Notes under the pieces: generated by a model
The model's database searches: none
Seen by the model: the letters and a program-made list of their open reading frames with translations, nothing else
What the model was told of the DNA's origin: nothing
Shown: positions 3,480-57,050 of the stretch, piece after piece
How positions within the stretch are numbered: position 1 is the first letter of the stretch
Layout of the letters: each line of letters begins with the position of its first letter
Translations under genes and position numbers: made by a program
Origin: Podarcis cretensis
Lineage: Eukaryota
Length of the DNA stretch: 64,000 nt
Assembly (NCBI GenBank): GCA_951804945.1
Contig: OX638159.1
Span: 36,146,001 to 36,210,000, forward strand
Direction: 5' to 3'

Positions 3480-3503
3480 TACAGCCACAGGAATGGTTTG
3501 GTC

Positions 3504-3661
3504 CAGTGGCGTAGCGTGGGTTGTCAGCACCCGGGGCAAGGCAAGTAATTTGCGCCCCCTAACCCTGGATTTGCGCCCCCTAACCCTATCCCTAACCCTA
3601 ACCCCCAGATGTTGCGCCCGGTGCGGCCGGCCCCCCCTGCACCCCCCACGGTACGCCACTG
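3504..3661 (+). mobile_element. hAT-type MITE with internal telomere-like CCCTAA repeats, copy 1
   Basis: TIR CAGTGGCGTAGCGTGGG / CCCACGGTACGCCACTG; perfect 8-bp TSD GTTTGGTC at 3496-3503 and 3662-3669. Confidence 0.93.
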
Positions 3662-3730
3662 GTTTGGTCCTCCCCACCCCCCCCCCCCCAAAAACAAACA
3701 TCCTAGGAGTCAAAGGCTGGAGTAAAGAGT

Positions 3731-3948: not shown

Positions 3949-4782
3949 AACTCCCACAATCTCTGACCACTGGTCATAGTTGATGGGACTGACCTAGGAA
4001 GTTCTCTCTGTGTGAACAGTCTGGGTTATGGCTATTACTCTTAAAGGGGCTGCACGGCAGATATCTGGCTAAGTAACACAGCACACACCCCTGGTGCTCT
4101 TAATATTATTACCACACCATGCAACAGCTTGGTTGCTTGTGAAGTCAGACTAGCCCCGCTTCCGTAAGATATCCAAGTGTCCTTATCGCTGGGGGTAAGC
4201 AAGGCTGTCACCTTGGGGAAGGACTTGCAGGTGCAAAGGTATTGACATATAAATAATAAGCAGGCTGCTGTTGACACAGGAACATTATTTAACCTGTCGC
4301 CGGAGTTTTAAATCTTGGCTTTGGGTGTGACTGGGAACAAGTGCACACTCCCCAAACAGCACAGTTCCTCTATGCTGAAATGCTAAAGCTATCATGAAAA
4401 GAACAAATATCCATGCACACACAAACGGGAACAACGGCGCACTATGGAAACAATGGTGTCAACAGTATTGACTGAGAGTAGCAACAGCCGGAGGCGCAGT
4501 TTAAAAAACAGTCATGCACTCAACGGTTTGGAAATATCGCAGTGCACTAAGAAGTACAGCGAAGAGGTGGGGATGTCAATAGCATGAGATGGAGAATTGG
4601 AGATGGGGGAGATCTGCTCTTGAAAATTCCACAGGGGTTGGAGGGAGGAGGCAAAGGCTACCCCCCTTTCCCGTCCCCCCCCCTTCCTTAAATTAAAATT
4701 AATAGATGTTTCATGCACCAGCAAAATTTGCATTTCCCAGAAGCAACAGATCATTTGTTTATCCCCATGTACCCCAAATTAG

Positions 4783-5132
4783 GGGACACGGGTGGCGCTG
4801 TAGGTTAAACCACAGAGCCTAGGACTTGCCAATCAGAAGGTCGGCAGTTCAAATCCCCGCGACTGGGTGAGCTCCCGTTGCTCGGTCCCTGCTCCTGCCA
4901 ACCTAGCAGTTCGAAAGCCCGTCAAAGTGCAAGTAGATAAATAGGTACCGCTCCAGTGGGAAGGTAAACGGCGTTTCCGTGCGCTGCTCTGGTTCGCCAG
5001 AAGCGGCTTAGTCATGCTGGCCACATGACCCGGAAGCTGTACGCCGGCTCCCTCAGCCAATAAAGCGAGATGAGCGCCGCAACCCCAGAGTCAGTCATGA
5101 CTGGACCTAATGGTCAGGGGTCCCTTTACCTT
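4783..5132 (+). mobile_element. Sauria SINE (Squam1), full length, subtype A
   Basis: GGGACACGGGTGGCGCTGT head, GTGCAAGTAGATAAATAGGTACC core, (TTTACC)n tail; 13-bp TSD TACCCCAAATTAG (4770-4782, 5133-5145). Confidence 0.95.
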
Positions 5133-5261
5133 TACCCCAAATTAGAAAGCTTTCCATATCTTGTAGCACATGCAAACTCACTTGCCCCTCTGCCCAGTCT
5201 TGATATTGCCTTGGATATATGCATGTAATTAAAGCCCAAAGCTCCCTTCTAGGTAGCAGTA

Positions 5262-5730
5262 AGATGGGGTGGCGAACCTCCAGCCCACAGTTTGCCGGGA
5301 GTTTGAATTTCACCCACTAGGATATTTTCCCCAAACCATGCTCCCCTGTCAATCATCTGATGCCACTCTGAGGGGCAGATGCCATCAACTGATGGGTAGG
5401 GGCAGGGTTCAATTCTGTTCCACAGGGAACTGGCACATACAGCCAAGGCAGCAGGATTTAACCCCACCCACCCACCTTCTTATCAGTTGATGAGTGGGTA
5501 GTTTAATGCTACTCAGACCCTTGCGGAAATCAGGACTGAACTATCTGCTCATCTGCAGAGAGTTCAATCCTGCTTAGTGTTGCTTCGCCCCTGTGGGTGG
5601 CAGGTGGGTGGCACTGACCTGTCACGTAGTATAATGATAATAACAGATGATTGACAGAAGTGTGGCCCCACCCATCTGTCAAAGCTGACCCACAGAGGTG
5701 GGAGGAAATGAAGATCTGGCCAAAAAAGTT
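5262..5730. mobile_element. old non-autonomous hAT-like element; relatives at ~1190-1760, ~6680-7600, ~27860-28450
   Basis: Terminus GGGGTGGCGAACCT; motifs cacctgtcaatcacctgac and gcaggatttaacccc shared among the listed copies. Boundaries approximate. Confidence 0.5.
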
Positions 5731-6679
5731 TCCCAGCAATAAGATGTTGTGATTGCTTCTCTTTTGAATAAACACCCCCCCCCCCCATAAAAACCCTCAT
5801 ACGAACTAAAGCAATATTGCCCCTAAAGAACAGTCGCCCAGTTTTAAAAGTAGAAGAGTCTGTTTTTAACAAACAATTCTAAAACATGTTCCTATTTAAT
5901 CGTCTATTACAACAGTTGTCCAAAGCATAGAACTAATGAGCTCAACAGAGATGGAGGAAAGGACCCAAAGATCCACGAGATTAAGGACAACAGTTGCTGA
6001 TGCTCTTCTACAAGCATATACAAGTTCCTGGAATGCTATAATAGCAGGTTCTATAGCAGATTTAGATTCCGTTCTGCCTTTCTCGCACGGCAGAGGATCT
6101 TACATTCAAGTAGCTATGCTTTCAACTGGGCTGAAAATACTGAATCTGCTGCCACAAAATGTCAAGATCTAAAGAAGCCACTCCAGGCTGTCCACATGCC
6201 CGACTAAGTGCACGCACCTGAATCAATTTACTGTGTGTAAGTGGAGTGTATTTTACAGCTTGCTGAGTTCACATGCAATTCCTACCGAAGGAATTTCTGA
6301 TGATTCATTTTAATTTAATCGGACCACATGCCGGAGTAATTGTGCACCTGTCAAGACATTCAGGCACTTGTCAGAATATCTGTTGATAGTCAAGTTTAAT
6401 GACTTGCCACTCAAAGAAATGGCAAGGTAGAAAAAAGCAGCCTCCGCTGGCATTTAACCGCACCACCAGACTATCCAAAGTATTTATGATGTGTACCTAA
6501 TTAAGCAGGGTGGAAAGTAAGTTTTCCCCCATGTTTTATGTGTTATGCAATCGCCCACTCACTTGGGAGCTATGTGCAAAACAACTGAAATTTGCACTGC
6601 TGATTTAACAGTGCAGTGCAATGGGATCTCTCGTCCCTTTCAGAGTCTCAAGGTGCTATTTGGATCAGCTACTCTCCTA

Positions 6680-7600
6680 CAGGAGTAGGAAACCTTTTGG
6701 GCTTGAGAGGCCACACACCCTTCCTTATCTGGACCCAACCACCATGGGCCACTTTGGACAAGTGGGCAGCCCATCTTACCTGTCAATCACCTGACATCCC
6801 ACCCACCTGTCAAAGTCCAATGTGAAAAGCTTCACAGGCATGTGACAGCTGGTTGCCACAGGCTATGGGGCTTTGTTGCTCCAGTAGCACCAAGTGGTTT
6901 CCATTGAAATAGATGCTAAAATTGAGCTTTCCCCCTTCATTTTCACAGCTGTTTCAATGGGAAACACTACTGGTGCAAGGCACACTTCCCTCAACCATCA
7001 GCTGATGCACTGGGGAGAGCACACCTTGATCCAGGAAAGGAACAATCCGGAGCGCACTTTAAGACCTGCCTGGACATATATGACATCAGGTGGGCATCGT
7101 ATAGGTGAAATGTCCTTGAAGGCCAAATGGGGAGGTCTGGTGGGCCAAACTTCCCCTATAGGCTGAAGTAAAAGGTAAAGGGACACAGGTGGTGCTGTGG
7201 TCTAAACCACTGAGCTTCTTGGGCTTGTCGATCGGAAGGTCAGTGGTTCGAATCTGCATAACAGGGTGAGCTCCCATTGCTTTATCCCAGCTTCTGCCAA
7301 ACTAGCAGTTTGAAAGCACACCAGTGCAAGTAGATAAATAGGTACCGCTGCGGCATGAAGGTAAACAGTGTTTCCATGCATTATGGTTTCCGTCACAGTG
7401 TTCTGCTGTGCTAGAAATTGTTTAGTCATGTTGGCCACATGACCCAGAAAGCTGTCTGTGGACAAACACCAGCTCTCTTTGCCTGAAGCGAGATGAGCGC
7501 CACAAACCCATAGTCACCTTTGACTGGACTTAACAGTCCAGGGGTCATTTACCATTTACCTTTTACCTTATAGGCTGAGGATACCCAACCCTACTGTACT
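6680..7600. mobile_element. old non-autonomous hAT-like element interrupted by a Sauria SINE
   Basis: Starts CAGGAGTAGGAAACCT, ends GGATACCCAACCCTACTG; shares internal motifs with the 5262 and 27860 copies. Confidence 0.5.
7168..7568 (+). mobile_element. Sauria SINE subtype B with an extra inverted tail at its 5' end
   Basis: SINE body from 7180; TSD TATAGGCTGA (7157-7166, 7569-7578). Confidence 0.92.
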
Positions 7601-8544
7601 ATGTTTGTTTGTTCATCTATTTATTTATTGAATTTCTATCCCATCATTTCTCCGGTAGGAGCCTAGGGCATCAAATATCAAGTGTATGGAGCTGGGCATA
7701 TTGATAATTGTAACAGAGTCAGGGACAGCTCTATCACTAGATAGACGGAGGCACAGGGGGAAGGCAATGAGGTGCTGGATGACAGATCTCTGTGTGCCAC
7801 ATGGCCTGCTTTGTACCCTCTAAGCTAACCTCCTGCCACCAAATGTGGTAGAAGGCATTGTCCCATTTCCTGTCGGCTTCTCTGCATGAAATTTGTGGGA
7901 GAGGTGAGGGTGGGATCTTGCCTCAGGCAGCAGAATTTCCTGGCCCCGCTCTGGCCAGAGTAGTGATAATATTCTATAATTCCTCTTCTGCTGATGGTGC
8001 ATTATCTAGATGTGGAGCTCAAAGGCACTTTGATCTGAGAGAAAAAAGAAGCCAAGTGTTTTGATGAGATGCAGGGGGCGGAGACGAAGGGTGAAAAGGT
8101 GGAATATATCGGATAAAATTAAATACTGACTTTCCCCAGTCTGAATCCCCTCCGGGGCAGCAGATCAATTTCTCTTCTCATCAAAACTCACCTTTATTGG
8201 CTGATCTTTTTCTTCTATTGAATTGCTGCCAGCACAGGGAGCACGGCCTTGATTTGAATTTCAGAGACAAGATTTGCAGAAAGTGGAAAAGTCATCGGCA
8301 AAGTATGATAGGAGGAAAAGGGGGGGGGGAGCAGCCAAGGGGTTGAGCTTGATTCAGTATTGAGCAAGCTGCCCAGCTGCTGGCCACCAAGGATGCAAAA
8401 GCAGCATGGCAAAATATTTGCTGAGAATTCTAATCTGGAGAAGCAAAGAGGACACTAGAATCAACAGTGCAGGAGAATCTGCAAAGGCCACTAGTGAAGG
8501 AAAAGTCTTTGGCATATATTCTAAAGAAGAGAAAATAATATTCC

Positions 8545-13249: not shown

Positions 13250-14330
13250 GTGCGTCAGGGGATCTTGCCTCGCTAATGGACTGGATGAGAGCCAATAACC
13301 TGAAGCTTAATCCATATAAGACTGAGGCACTATTAGTTTGTGATTCCCTAGACTGGGAAGTTGTATGCCCTTGATGGGGTTACACTCCCTTTGAAGGGGC
13401 AGGTGTGTACTTCTAGATCCATTGCTGTTGCTTTGAAGGTCAGGTGGCCTTGATGGCATGGAGTGCCTTCCATCAGCTTCAGAAAGGTTTGAGCATATAA
13501 TGCCAATCTTGACCTGACTGAACTGGCTGTCAGTTAGTTTCCAGGCCCAATTGAAAGTTTGTTGTTGTTTAGTCGTTTAGTCATGTCCAACTCTTCGTGA
13601 CCCCATGGACCAGAGCATGCCAGGCACTCCTGTCTTCCACTGCCTCCCACAGTTTGGTCAAACTCATGCTGGTAGCTTCGTGAACACTGTCCAACCATCT
13701 CGTCCTCTGTCGCCCCCTTCTCCTTGTGCCATCCATCTTTCCCAACATCAGGGTCTTTTCCAGGGAGTCTTCTCTTCTCATGAGGTGGCCAAAGTATTGG
13801 AGCCTCAGCTTCACGACCTGTCCTTCCAATGAGCACTCAGAGTTGATTTCCTTAAGAATGGAGAGGTTTGATCTTCTTGCAGTCCATGGGACTCTCAAGA
13901 GTCTTCTCCAGCACCATAATTCAAAAGCATCAATTCTTCGGCGATTGGCCTTCTTTATGGTCCAGCTCTCACTTCCATACATCACTACTGGGAAAACCAT
14001 GGCTTAAACTATACGGACCTTTGTTGGCAAGGTGATGTCTTTGCTTTTTAAGATGCTGTCTAGCTTTGCCAATTGAAAATACTTAACCTAAAATGGCTCA
14101 GGACTGCAATACCTCAAGGACCGCCTCTCCCCATAGGAACCAACCCAGACCCTGTGATCATCATCTGAGGCCCTGCTTCACGTGCCTCCTCTGTGAGAGG
14201 TCTGGAGGGTGGCAACCTGAGAACAGGTCTTTTCTGTGTTGGCTCCTGGTGCCTTCATTACATATCTTTAGGTCCCAGGGAAAAAAAATTCCTCTTCATC
14301 CAGGCCTTTCACTAATTAAACTATCATGGA
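13250..14330 (+). mobile_element. L2 LINE remnant hosting BovB copy 2
   Basis: tggatgagagccaataacctgaagcttaatccatataagactgag encodes WMRANNLKLNPYKTE, the L2 W...N.LKLN..KTE motif; L2-type 3' region resumes at ~14080. Confidence 0.8.
13557..14068 (-). mobile_element. BovB LINE, 5'-truncated 3' fragment
   Basis: Same BovB C-terminal peptide as copy 1; TSD CCAATTGAAA (13547-13556, 14069-14078). Confidence 0.95.
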
Positions 14331-15058
14331 AGACTTTGGGCTGTGCCCAACGAAACACGCTCACATCTTTGCTCGCTTGCTTTGCCACAAGACCACAGAA
14401 ATATCAGCTCCCAACTGCAAATGGTATGGCAATTGACCCTGCCAAGGACACCCTTCCCCGAGTTTAGCAATTAGCCAAAGCTGCAAACATTATCCAAACA
14501 TTCTAAAGAGGAATTTTAAACATTCCTTTGCCGTTTGAAGTTTGGGTGCTCCCTCCAAATGCTTCCCCACCCACCTACATTTCTTGCTGAATGACAATGC
14601 TTGTGGAAGATGAATATAGAGAGGGATTGTGTTGTGGATACAGGAGGCTGCATTCGTTTCCCCCTTTGATCACTCTCTGGATGGAAAAATTCAGATTCCC
14701 AGGCTTGAACAAATCGCACAGGCTAGCCAAAGCGTGGTTTTTCTGACAGCTAAACAAGCAACTTCTTGTCTGTCTTCCTGGCTACAGGGCTAAGGGCTAA
14801 GAAAAAGCCAACTCTGTGTTAATGAGAAGGAAAATAGAGGGTTATTAAACGAGTGTTTCATTTTTCAAAAGGTTTAAACTGAATTGCTTGGATTTAATCA
14901 AACTGTAGAAACTCCTAAATATAAGAGCTGTAGTGTGCCCTTTCCTGAAATGCCCCCACCCCCCACTTTCCCAGGCTAAATAAGTTAAGAACCTATTTGC
15001 AAACCATTTTGCAAATTTGAACTTCATTGACAGATGTCTGATTTGTGAAAATGGAAGC

Positions 15059-15215
15059 CAGTGGCATAGCGTGGGGGGTGCAGGGGGGCCGGCCGCACCG
15101 GGCGCAACATCTGGGGGTTAGGGGTAGGGGTAGGGGTGGGGGCGCAAATCCACGGGTTAGGGGGCGCAAATTACTTGCCTTGCCCCGGGTGCTGACAACC
15201 CACGCTACGCCACTG
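15059..15215 (-). mobile_element. hAT-type MITE with telomere-like repeats, copy 2
   Basis: Reverse complement of copy 1; perfect TSD ATGGAAGC (15051-15058, 15216-15223). Confidence 0.93.
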
Positions 15216-15355
15216 ATGGAAGCTAATGCTTTAAAAAAATCCTTAGTAAATCATTCTTTGTTTTTGTGTTCTGAAACCCCTGCAGCACTTCCAAGAGTTG
15301 GGCCAAACAACAGGTTACATTATTAATGCTTTATTTTTTATTTTTTAAAAAAGCA

Positions 15356-53512: not shown

Positions 53513-53997
53513 GGCAAGCCCTTACAGAATAAGCAGAGTGCCTTTTCAATTTTATGGAGTTGACTTTTCTATTTAAGCATGTCTTTTGCCATCATATCAT
53601 TCCATCGCTGGCCAACAGGAGGAAGACATTCGAAGCAGAGATTTGCATCTGGTGATCTCATCGTTGGAGTACTGCTTAGGATTTCACACAGCTGGGGCAC
53701 TGCCACTGCAGTTTGAGTGACTGAGAGCAAAGCTATAACACTCTCGGGGACGTGGGCAGTTATTTTTCCCCTGTCTGTGGATTATTATTTTGCAACAAGT
53801 ATACTTGTAGAGATTCTTTTTTCTTTATTGAACAAAGGAATATTTGGATGTAACTTTGGCTTTGAGACATCCTGAATTGCACTTGAATATGATTTTGTTA
53901 TTGCATACATGACGTAAAAGCTATATTTTAAAAAACGGACACTTGGTGGAATATAAATGTCTCATTTTTATATTTGGTCTTTGGGAAGTTCTATATA

Positions 53998-54231
53998 CAG
54001 TGGTACCTCAGGTTACAAACACTTCAGGTTACAGACACTTCAGGTTACAGACTCCGCTAACCCAGAAATAGTACCTCAGGTTAAGAATTTTGCTTCAGGG
54101 TGAGAACAGAAATTGCACAGCAGCGGCAGCAGGAGGCCCCATTAGCTAAAGTGGTACCTCAGGTTAAGAACAGTTTCAGGTTAAAAACAGACCTCCAGAA
54201 CATATTAAGTTCTTAACCCGAGGTACCACCA
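53998..54231. mobile_element. Tc1/mariner MITE, family A
   Basis: Third copy of the 1395/3254 element. Confidence 0.88.
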
Positions 54232-56526: not shown

Positions 56527-57050
56527 AAGGTAAAGGGTAAAGGGACCCCTGACCATTAGGTCCAGTTGTGGCTGACTCTGGGGTTGCGGCGCTCATCTCG
56601 CTTTACTGGCTGAGGGAGCCAGCGTACAGCTTCCGGGTCATGTGGCCAGCATGACTAAGCCACTTCTGGTGAACCAGAGCAGTGCATGGAAACGCCGTTT
56701 ACCTTCCCACCGGAGCAGTACCTATTTATCTACTTGCACTTTGACGTGCTTTCGAACTATTAGGTTGGCAGGAGCAGGGACCAAGCAACGGGAGCCAGTG
56801 GCGTAGCGTGGGTTGTCAGCACCCGGGGCAAGGCAAGTAATTTGCGCCCCCTAACCCTGGATTTACGCCCCCTAACCCTATCCCTAACCCTAACCCCCAG
56901 ATGTTGCGCCCGGTGCGGCCGGCCCCCCCTGCACCCCCCACGCTACGCCACTGACAGGAGCTCACCCGTCGTGGGGATTCGAACCGCTAACCTTCTGATC
57001 GTCAAGTCCTAGGCTCTGTGGTTTAACCCACAAAGCTACCCACGTCCCCC
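56527..57050 (-). mobile_element. Sauria SINE subtype A interrupted by the telomere-repeat MITE
   Basis: TSD TGAATCTTCCATTA (56513-56526, 57051-57064). Confidence 0.94.
56796..56953 (+). mobile_element. hAT-type MITE with telomere-like repeats, copy 3
   Basis: Perfect 17-bp TIR CAGTGGCGTAGCGTGGG; TSD ACGGGAGC/ACAGGAGC derived from the SINE sequence. Confidence 0.94.

What the first reader, a model, noticed from the sequence alone, without database searches (positions are those of the whole stretch)
3504..3661. Young hAT-type MITE that carries telomere-like repeats (3 copies: 3504-3661, 15059-15215, 56796-56953)
Seen: a 157-158 bp element with 17-bp TIRs, a different 8-bp TSD at each site, intact CpGs, and only two differences that I can find between copies 1 and 3. 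Its centre reads CCCTAACCCT..CCCTAACCCTATCCCTAACCCTAACCCC, i.e. vertebrate telomeric TTAGGG units on the other strand. Known: 8-bp TSDs with CAG..CTG termini indicate hAT, and TTAGGG duplex is the TRF1/TRF2 ligand. Inference: a recently mobile DNA element may be scattering short interstitial telomeric sequences genome-wide, possibly recruiting shelterin or seeding telomere healing. Three copies in 64 kb suggest a high genomic copy number if the window is typical. I cannot tell whether the family is already catalogued.
Basis: partly seen in the sequence, partly recalled or inferred. Interest (0 to 1): 0.75.

Follow-up and report, generated by a model that had tools for sequence, protein, structure and literature searches.

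The report
Lizard mini-transposon with telomere-like subfamily
This is a real, gene-less jumping element with an estimated several thousand copies in what is likely a lizard genome, but the telomere-like run in its middle marks only a minority of the copies read, likely arose by local copying slips, and is untested for any telomere-protein binding.

Summary
Confirmed: three 157-158 bp copies with 17-bp TIRs and 8-bp TSDs. Copy 3 splits a SINE, and 7 of 7 empty paralogues found carry the target 8-mer once. The element works like a non-autonomous hAT MITE; no transposase partner was found. Raw reads of a holder organism (X24) give roughly 4,700-7,400 element ends, about 0.25 per 64 kb, so this window is about tenfold denser than that genome. 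The telomere-like run is short: 27 bp with one mismatch, longest perfect stretch 15 bp. It meets the operational short-ITS definition in copies 1 and 3 but not in copy 2. In X24, 2,844 of 3,390 reads crossing the centre carry a non-telomeric spacer there instead. Homologous elements in animal-like metagenome contigs share the ends and the sequence around the first CCCTAA but have no array. Best reading: a slippage-prone C-rich centre drifted into TTAGGG register in one subfamily, which hitchhikes. That subfamily (about 400-500 copies or fewer in X24) may still be a large source of short-ITS-like sites. Shelterin binding is untested and judged unlikely to matter. Dfam/Repbase status is unknown.

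The parts
3504..3661 (+). MITE copy 1, 158 bp; G at 3651 is a private change (about 99% of reads in X24 read C)
3496..3503 (+). left TSD of copy 1 (GTTTGGTC); the right copy is at 3662-3669
3504..3520 (+). left TIR, 17 bp
3645..3661 (-). right TIR, 17 bp, one mismatch
3548..3587 (+). 21-bp tandem unit x1.9; each unit holds a TTGCGCCC motif and one CCCTAA; unit number varies among reads (joints going back 20-21 bp in 805 reads of X24)
3578..3604 (+). telomere-like run of copy 1: 4.5 hexamers, 1 mismatch; matches a G-quadruplex pattern on the minus strand; 3587-3595 is the block that most X24 reads replace
15059..15215 (-). MITE copy 2, 157 bp; TSD ATGGAAGC at 15051-15058 and 15216-15223; keeps the extra G shared with most X24 reads and with distant relatives
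15115..15142 (+). centre of copy 2: GGGGTA-type hexamer run, not telomeric, still matches the G-quadruplex pattern
56796..56953 (+). MITE copy 3, 158 bp, perfect 17-bp TIRs; TSD 7 of 8 at 56788-56795 and 56954-56961
56870..56896 (+). telomere-like run of copy 3, identical to that of copy 1
56529..57050 (-). host SINE copy split by copy 3 (Sauria/Squam1-like; name recalled, ACCTTT tail agrees with PMC10702118); empty paralogues hold the target 8-mer once

Best explanation
A 158-bp gene-less element with 17-bp terminal inverted repeats and 8-bp target duplications, likely cut and pasted in trans by an unidentified hAT transposase, has a C-rich, length-variable centre that in one minority subfamily matches 4.5 telomeric hexamers, likely through local slippage and without any telomere function. 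Shown: insertion with an 8-bp duplication (empty paralogous sites), many unrelated flanks, thousands of ends in a holder genome, variable unit number in the centre, a majority centre that is not a tandem telomeric run, and relatives with the same ends but no array. Inferred: the TIRs and the three TT(G/A)CGCCC motifs at element positions 47, 68 and 109 are the transposase landing sites. Each 21-bp subterminal unit carries one native CCCTAA. Exchange of the 9-bp spacer between two such hexamers for 1.5 more hexamers, or the reverse, brings them into or out of register. The resulting array then drifts like a microsatellite (TAACCC-type in copies 1 and 3, TACCCC-type in copy 2) and spreads passively with whichever master copy amplifies. 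Which centre is ancestral is not settled.
For: TSDs and empty sites. Sharp boundary at 3504 with unrelated flanks (agreement 0.32-0.34) in all 4 runs. Arm depth of about 6,800-8,300 in X24 against about 1-1.7 in the unique flank. Other letters at 3590 in 2,844 of 3,390 reads and at 3594 in 2,842 of 3,572; joints going back 20-21 bp in 805 reads. Copy 2 drifted to a non-telomeric hexamer at three units at once. Metagenome relatives are 82-87% identical over the first 56-67 nt (6 loci, two pairs redundant), and most run into the first CCCTAA-like site. The 5 of 5 short two-ended elements examined have no CCCTAA or TTAGGG. Microsatellite birth by slippage is a listed origin of short ITSs (PMC9693754 passages).
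Against: The share rests on one raw-read run of organism D, which may not be the window's species (it held 0.40 of the sampled words in other runs). In the window itself 2 of 3 copies are telomere-like. In the contig runs X15, X16 and X1 under 1% of laid depth at 3590 showed the other letter. Those runs lay only 3-14% as much depth at the centre as at the arms, so they give no share either way. The tool silently drops human-like reads, which could remove telomere-like copies. About half of the arm depth in X24 is missing at the centre and is unaccounted for; I attribute it to clipping because the steps fall at the variant sites 3565 and 3596 (inference). No transposase was found, so hAT rests on termini and TSD length.
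Confidence: 0.68

Rival explanations
1. Telomerase patch: a break in one master copy was repaired by adding 1.5 telomeric units in register with the native CCCTAA, deleting the 9-bp spacer; that copy then amplified. It would be a true short ITS carried by a transposon.
For: The swapped block is in register with hexamers on both sides and the length is nearly unchanged. Deletion plus insertion is the commonest change at vertebrate TERC-ITS sites (12 of 29; PMC8537989 passages).
Against: The added unit is a variant (CCCTAT) and only 9 bp. Copy 2 has the same array length with a non-telomeric hexamer. Distant relatives have similar CCCTT(A/C)C sequence at the aligned place (short and low-complexity, so weak).
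Confidence: 0.13
2. Functional cargo: the telomere-like subfamily binds TRF1/TRF2, as duplex or G-quadruplex, and this affects host chromatin, break healing or the element's own success.
For: Copies 1 and 3 meet the short-ITS definition and hold 2 TAGGGTT cores and 1 YTAGGGTTR site each (motif recalled). All three copies keep a G-quadruplex pattern. TRF1/TRF2 bind some short ITSs in human cells (PMC6410037). Two of three window copies are of this type.
Against: Binding was reported at 30 short ITSs, depending on length and conservation, against 229 catalogued in human. The longest perfect stretch here is 15 bp. The family reached thousands of copies in X24 mostly without the run, and copy 2 has lost all TAGGGTT cores.
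Confidence: 0.1
3. The hexamer array is the ancestral centre of the lizard family, and the majority form in X24 arose later by copying part of the 21-bp unit over it. The telomere-like form would then be a relic, possibly dominant in other lineages.
For: Copy 2 has the ancestral-looking extra G together with a hexamer array. The contig runs of three other organisms show the window-type centre at thousands of times single-copy depth (not a copy number).
Against: Copies 1 and 3 lack the G that relatives and 52% of X24 reads have at 3565, so they look derived. The low centre/arm depth in contig runs fits the same minority share as in X24.
Confidence: 0.09

Closest known systems
Non-autonomous hAT families of Anolis carolinensis (hAT-N1 to N8_AC, SPIN_NA, hAT-HT derivatives; PMC3014272)
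   Same: Short gene-less elements with 8-bp TSDs, 11-16-bp TIRs starting CAG, over 1,000 copies, low divergence; some are orphans without a known autonomous partner.
   Different: The TIR here matches none of the Table 1 rows seen (rows hobo-N5 to N10 were cut from view). None of the 3 TSDs has the central TA of the HT/SPIN types. No telomeric cargo is mentioned ('telomer' occurs 0 times).
Tip group of hAT transposons (PMC3942097; vertebrate hAT-Tip100 relics such as Zaphod, Arthur1 and MER45 recalled, not checked)
   Same: 8-bp TSD, short TIR, MITE derivatives. GC-rich termini with GCGCCC/GCCGCC subterminal motifs resemble Tip100-type ends (recalled).
   Different: The group is defined by transposase phylogeny; no transposase was available here.
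Short interstitial telomeric sequences of human and horse (PMC7215372, PMC8537989)
   Same: Copies 1 and 3 pass the working definition of at least four units with under one mismatch per unit.
   Different: Those are single-locus insertions at repaired breaks, and transposons were judged not to spread TERC-ITSs. Here one short run is multiplied as part of a DNA transposon and appears to derive from the element's own sequence.
Proposed transposon-mediated spread of ITSs (reviews PMC6410037, PMC9693754, PMC4529230)
   Same: [quoted passage not shown]
   Different: In the passages read it is a proposal without a named vertebrate DNA-transposon family. This is a concrete but very short case, far below what the large FISH-visible arrays need.

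Membership tests
hAT superfamily (non-autonomous) | 8-bp target site duplication | tested here: met
   2 perfect, 1 with 7 of 8; 7 of 7 empty SINE paralogues found hold the 8-mer once
hAT superfamily (non-autonomous) | short TIRs of 10-25 bp | tested here: met
   17 bp; range from PMC3942097
hAT superfamily (non-autonomous) | autonomous partner with the same ends encoding a hAT transposase | tested here: inconclusive
   No genome held. No hAT family among 35 frames inside 7 TIR-bearing metagenome loci at E up to 0.05; one weak hAT dimerisation hit (E 0.031) in L005 lies outside the element
hAT Buster/Charlie type | TSD with central TA | tested here: not met
   0 of 3 window TSDs against the NTCTAGAN-type patterns
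hAT Tip group | transposase falls in the Tip clade | not testable with these tools
   no transposase found
MITE | short, non-coding, TIR-bounded, high copy number, homogeneous | tested here: met
   157-158 bp, 95-99% identical, about 4,700-7,400 ends in X24 for an assumed 1.3-1.7 Gb genome
MITE | AT-rich interior (a typical feature listed in PMC3942097, not obligatory) | tested here: not met
   66-68% GC
short ITS | at least four TTAGGG units, under one mismatch per unit | tested here: met
   copies 1 and 3 (1 mismatch in 24 bp); copy 2 has 4 in 24 and fails the strict wording
short ITS | sudden insertion of telomeric repeats at a repaired break | tested here: inconclusive
   9-bp block swap in register, but flanking hexamers are native and copy 2 has a non-telomeric array
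short ITS | bound by TRF1/TRF2 (true of a subset only) | not testable with these tools
   needs EMSA or CUT&RUN

The most novel reading that the evidence does not exclude
A hAT MITE subfamily is the main source of short interstitial telomeric sequences in these lizards, hundreds to thousands of sites against 229 in human, and these sites recruit TRF1/TRF2 or prime telomerase at nearby breaks. That would be the first named vertebrate DNA transposon that sows shelterin sites. The first half (main source of definition-passing sites) is about even odds; the functional half is what is unlikely.
Probability: 0.08. Interest if true: 0.75.

Novelty: new variant of a known kind. Interest (0 to 1): 0.3.

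Why it matters
Reviews list transposon-mediated spread as a possible origin of interstitial telomeric sequences without a named vertebrate case in the passages read. This family gives a concrete, countable example, with a built-in control: sister copies with the same ends and a non-telomeric centre. In practice it warns that short-ITS catalogues in lizard assemblies may be inflated by one MITE subfamily rather than by break-repair scars. Without binding data it remains an ordinary MITE with a curious centre.

Tried and rejected
No whole genome is held, so no assembly census or partner search. Viral contigs: 3 TIR matches, all chance coding DNA without a partner end. Prokaryote genomes: 2 matches, with nothing element-like after the TIR in the 200 nt printed. 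Of 24 metagenome loci, L008 and L021 (GC 0.57-0.59) look like chance bacterial matches and were not used; L017/L022, L004/L006 and L016/L019 are redundant pairs. Pfam on 10 long frames of the loci and 36 frames gave no transposase inside any element. Rfam found nothing in the element. Folding gives only the TIR stem. Insertion polymorphism: no joint matching an empty copy-1 site (a skip of 166) among 15 joints shown, with 81 not shown. The joints skipping 193-198 bases start at the end of the neighbouring repeat, have short sides and were rejected. The contig runs were rejected as a measure of subfamily share or copy number. Literature: the TIR 12-mer occurs in 0 papers, and searches listed no paper on this family. 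Dfam and Repbase could not be searched, and no supplements were read, so repeat libraries in supplements may hold it. Earlier-findings look-ups by sequence, by words and by place returned nothing for this element.

Full report
Observation. A BLAST of copy 3 against the window finds no other copy or sizeable fragment. Copies 1 and 3 differ at 2 of 158 positions; copy 2 differs from each by 5 substitutions and 3 gap positions. The 17-bp TIR occurs 6 times with up to 3 mismatches, all at these ends, against 0.05 expected from shuffles. It is perfect only in copy 3. Each copy has 11 CpGs and 66-68% GC.

Proof of insertion. The TSDs are perfect for copies 1 and 2 and 7 of 8 for copy 3. Copy 3 interrupts a SINE. 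Its left and right flanks map to other SINE copies with an overlap of exactly 8 bases. All 7 empty paralogues picked up by the motif carry the target 8-mer once, 5 of them as in the left TSD. In four public runs the element's left boundary is sharp at 3503-3504 and the letters before it agree only at chance level, 0.31-0.34. So this is a dispersed element that duplicates 8 bp on insertion. The CpG-type change in one TSD shows that copy 3 is young but not brand-new.

Host. No genome is held. The SINE with an ACCTTT-type tail resembles Sauria/Squam1 (name recalled; tail and abundance in lacertids from passages of PMC10702118), so I take the host to be a lizard, probably a lacertid. This is inference. 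Twenty indexed runs from nine coded organisms and eight studies hold part of the stretch; I laid four of the 24 listed.

Copy number. In raw reads of X24 (organism D, 1,905 Mb read) depth is about 7,400-8,300 on the left arm, 6,800-7,100 on the right arm and about 1-1.7 on the unique flank. For a genome of 1.3-1.7 Gb (assumed; 1.3 Gb was the expected size for Darevskia valentini in PMC9498476) this gives about 4,700-7,400 element ends. The density, 0.23-0.28 per 64 kb, does not depend on genome size. Three copies in the window is about ten times that (Poisson P=0.002). The neighbouring repeat that ends at 3481 has 3 copies in the window against 2.15 expected. So either the window is a local cluster or its species has more copies than D. 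A contig of X15 spans 3617-3730 with one other letter and one gap, so organism G has the same insertion. No empty allele appeared among the joints shown (15 shown, 81 not).

The telomere-like centre. In copies 1 and 3 the run is 27 bp with one mismatch, and the longest perfect stretch is 15 bp. It passes the working definition of a short ITS, at least four units with under one mismatch per unit, which its authors call arbitrary (PMC7215372 passages). Copy 2 has a hexamer run of the same length but of a GGGGTA type, with no TAGGGTT core. All three centres match a G-quadruplex pattern, but in copies 1 and 3 the G-rich arm scores higher than the centre, so the pattern is not special to the run.

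Most reads in X24 lack the run. At 3590, 2,844 of 3,390 reads show G instead of C; at 3594, 2,842 of 3,572 show T instead of A; positions 3588, 3591, 3592 and 3595 differ in 75-84% of reads. Read together, these columns spell the GTGGATTTG spacer of the element's own 21-bp subterminal unit (my reconstruction from the column table), so the majority form has three spaced single hexamers and no tandem run. Another 805 reads go back 20-21 bp, that is they carry an extra unit. At most 546 of the laid reads can be window-type, about 370-490 copies. Limits: centre depth is only 0.47 of arm depth, and the tool drops human-like reads without notice. I read the loss as clipping because depth falls in steps at 3565 and 3596, where the variants lie, but I did not simulate this. 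They fit a minority share as well as they fit a filtered majority, so they decide nothing. The window's own 2 of 3 is a small count in the other direction.

Where the hexamers come from. A scan of metagenome contigs with the TIR gave 24 loci; 22 have GC of 0.39-0.50 and look like animal DNA (inference). Six loci (two pairs redundant) match the first 56-67 nt at 82-87%; L027 matches 67 nt at 87%, running through the site of the first CCCTAA. Five are short two-ended elements of 145-191 bp, with TSDs of 8 of 8 in two, 7 of 8 in two and none in one. They show the same layout, mostly with TTGCC-type motifs around a C-rich spacer, and have no CCCTAA or TTAGGG. So the ends are widespread and the first hexamer is native left-end sequence, copied inward by the unit duplication. 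These relatives also have the G at 3565 that copy 2 and 52% of X24 reads have, which makes copies 1 and 3 look derived. The short shared end does not show horizontal transfer.

Mechanism. Most likely an unknown hAT transposase acts in trans on the TIRs and the repeated TT(G/A)CGCCC motifs (element positions 47, 68, 109); this role is inferred from general hAT biology and was not tested. The centre is a mutable minisatellite. Swapping the spacer between two native hexamers for 1.5 hexamers puts them in telomeric register, and the array then drifts as a microsatellite. A telomerase patch is the main alternative origin, since deletion plus insertion is common at such sites (PMC8537989 passages). 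The variant unit, the tiny gain and copy 2's non-telomeric array weigh against it. The direction of change is unresolved. For function, TRF1/TRF2 were found at 30 short ITSs in human cells, with binding dependent on length and conservation (PMC6410037 passages). A 15-bp perfect stretch is at the weak end, and the family reached high copy number in X24 mostly without it.

Comparison with what is known. It works like the orphan non-autonomous hAT families of Anolis, but its TIR matches none of the Table 1 rows seen (PMC3014272 passages). hATs make up 2.3% of a lacertid assembly in which many repeats are unclassified (PMC9498476 passages). A Tip-group assignment is a recalled resemblance only (group defined in PMC3942097 passages); no transposase was found. 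Reviews mention transposon-borne telomeric repeats as a possible source of ITSs (passages of PMC6410037, PMC9693754 and PMC4529230). The TIR 12-mer is in no searched paper, and searches listed none on this family, judged from listings and abstract starts; searches served as background. Dfam, Repbase and supplements were not seen, so the family may well be catalogued as an automatic repeat model.

Verdict. A real, young hAT-type MITE. The telomere-like run is real but short, a minority subfamily trait in the one genome measured, and likely a by-product. What remains of interest is that a few hundred such copies would already exceed the 229 human and 142 horse short ITSs, which makes transposon-borne ITS spread testable with a built-in control. 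New variant of a known kind; interest 0.3.

Noticed in passing
window:3808-3879 (+): tRNA-Lys(CTT)-like sequence 146 bp right of copy 1 (ARAGORN; Rfam 44.9 bits); the sequence after it looks like a SINE body (recalled), so probably a tRNA-derived SINE head and not a gene.
   Followed up: partly
window:3234-3481, about 1391-1638, about 53994-54229: A second TIR element flanked by TA (Tc1/pogo-like by recall), three copies in the window, ending 22 bp left of copy 1; depth about 64,000 in X24, roughly 44,000-57,000 copies.
   Followed up: partly
window:58868-61519 (-): Open frame of 883 aa with a reverse transcriptase domain (RVT_1, E 1.2e-38), L1-like by recall; a young 5'-truncated LINE copy.
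   Followed up: partly
window:9698-9997 and 13559-13858: Two 93%-identical copies with frames resembling an RTE/BovB 3' end (recalled; no Pfam hit for the one tested).
   Followed up: no
window:20418-20750: Fold-back element with 128-nt arms, 79% complementary, 77 nt apart.
   Followed up: no
window:38357-38516: Assembly gap of 160 N.
   Followed up: no
L026:4-1660: 1,657-bp non-coding element with closely similar TIRs at both ends and internal tandem units of about 130 bp, related to L018, L020, L024 and L025.
   Followed up: partly
L005:339-731 (-): Weak hAT dimerisation-domain fragment (E 0.031, below cut-off), lying outside the TIR-bearing element on that contig.
   Followed up: partly
L004:1294-1575 and L006: A second TIR-like start about 107 nt inside the first, suggesting a nested related element.
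   Followed up: no
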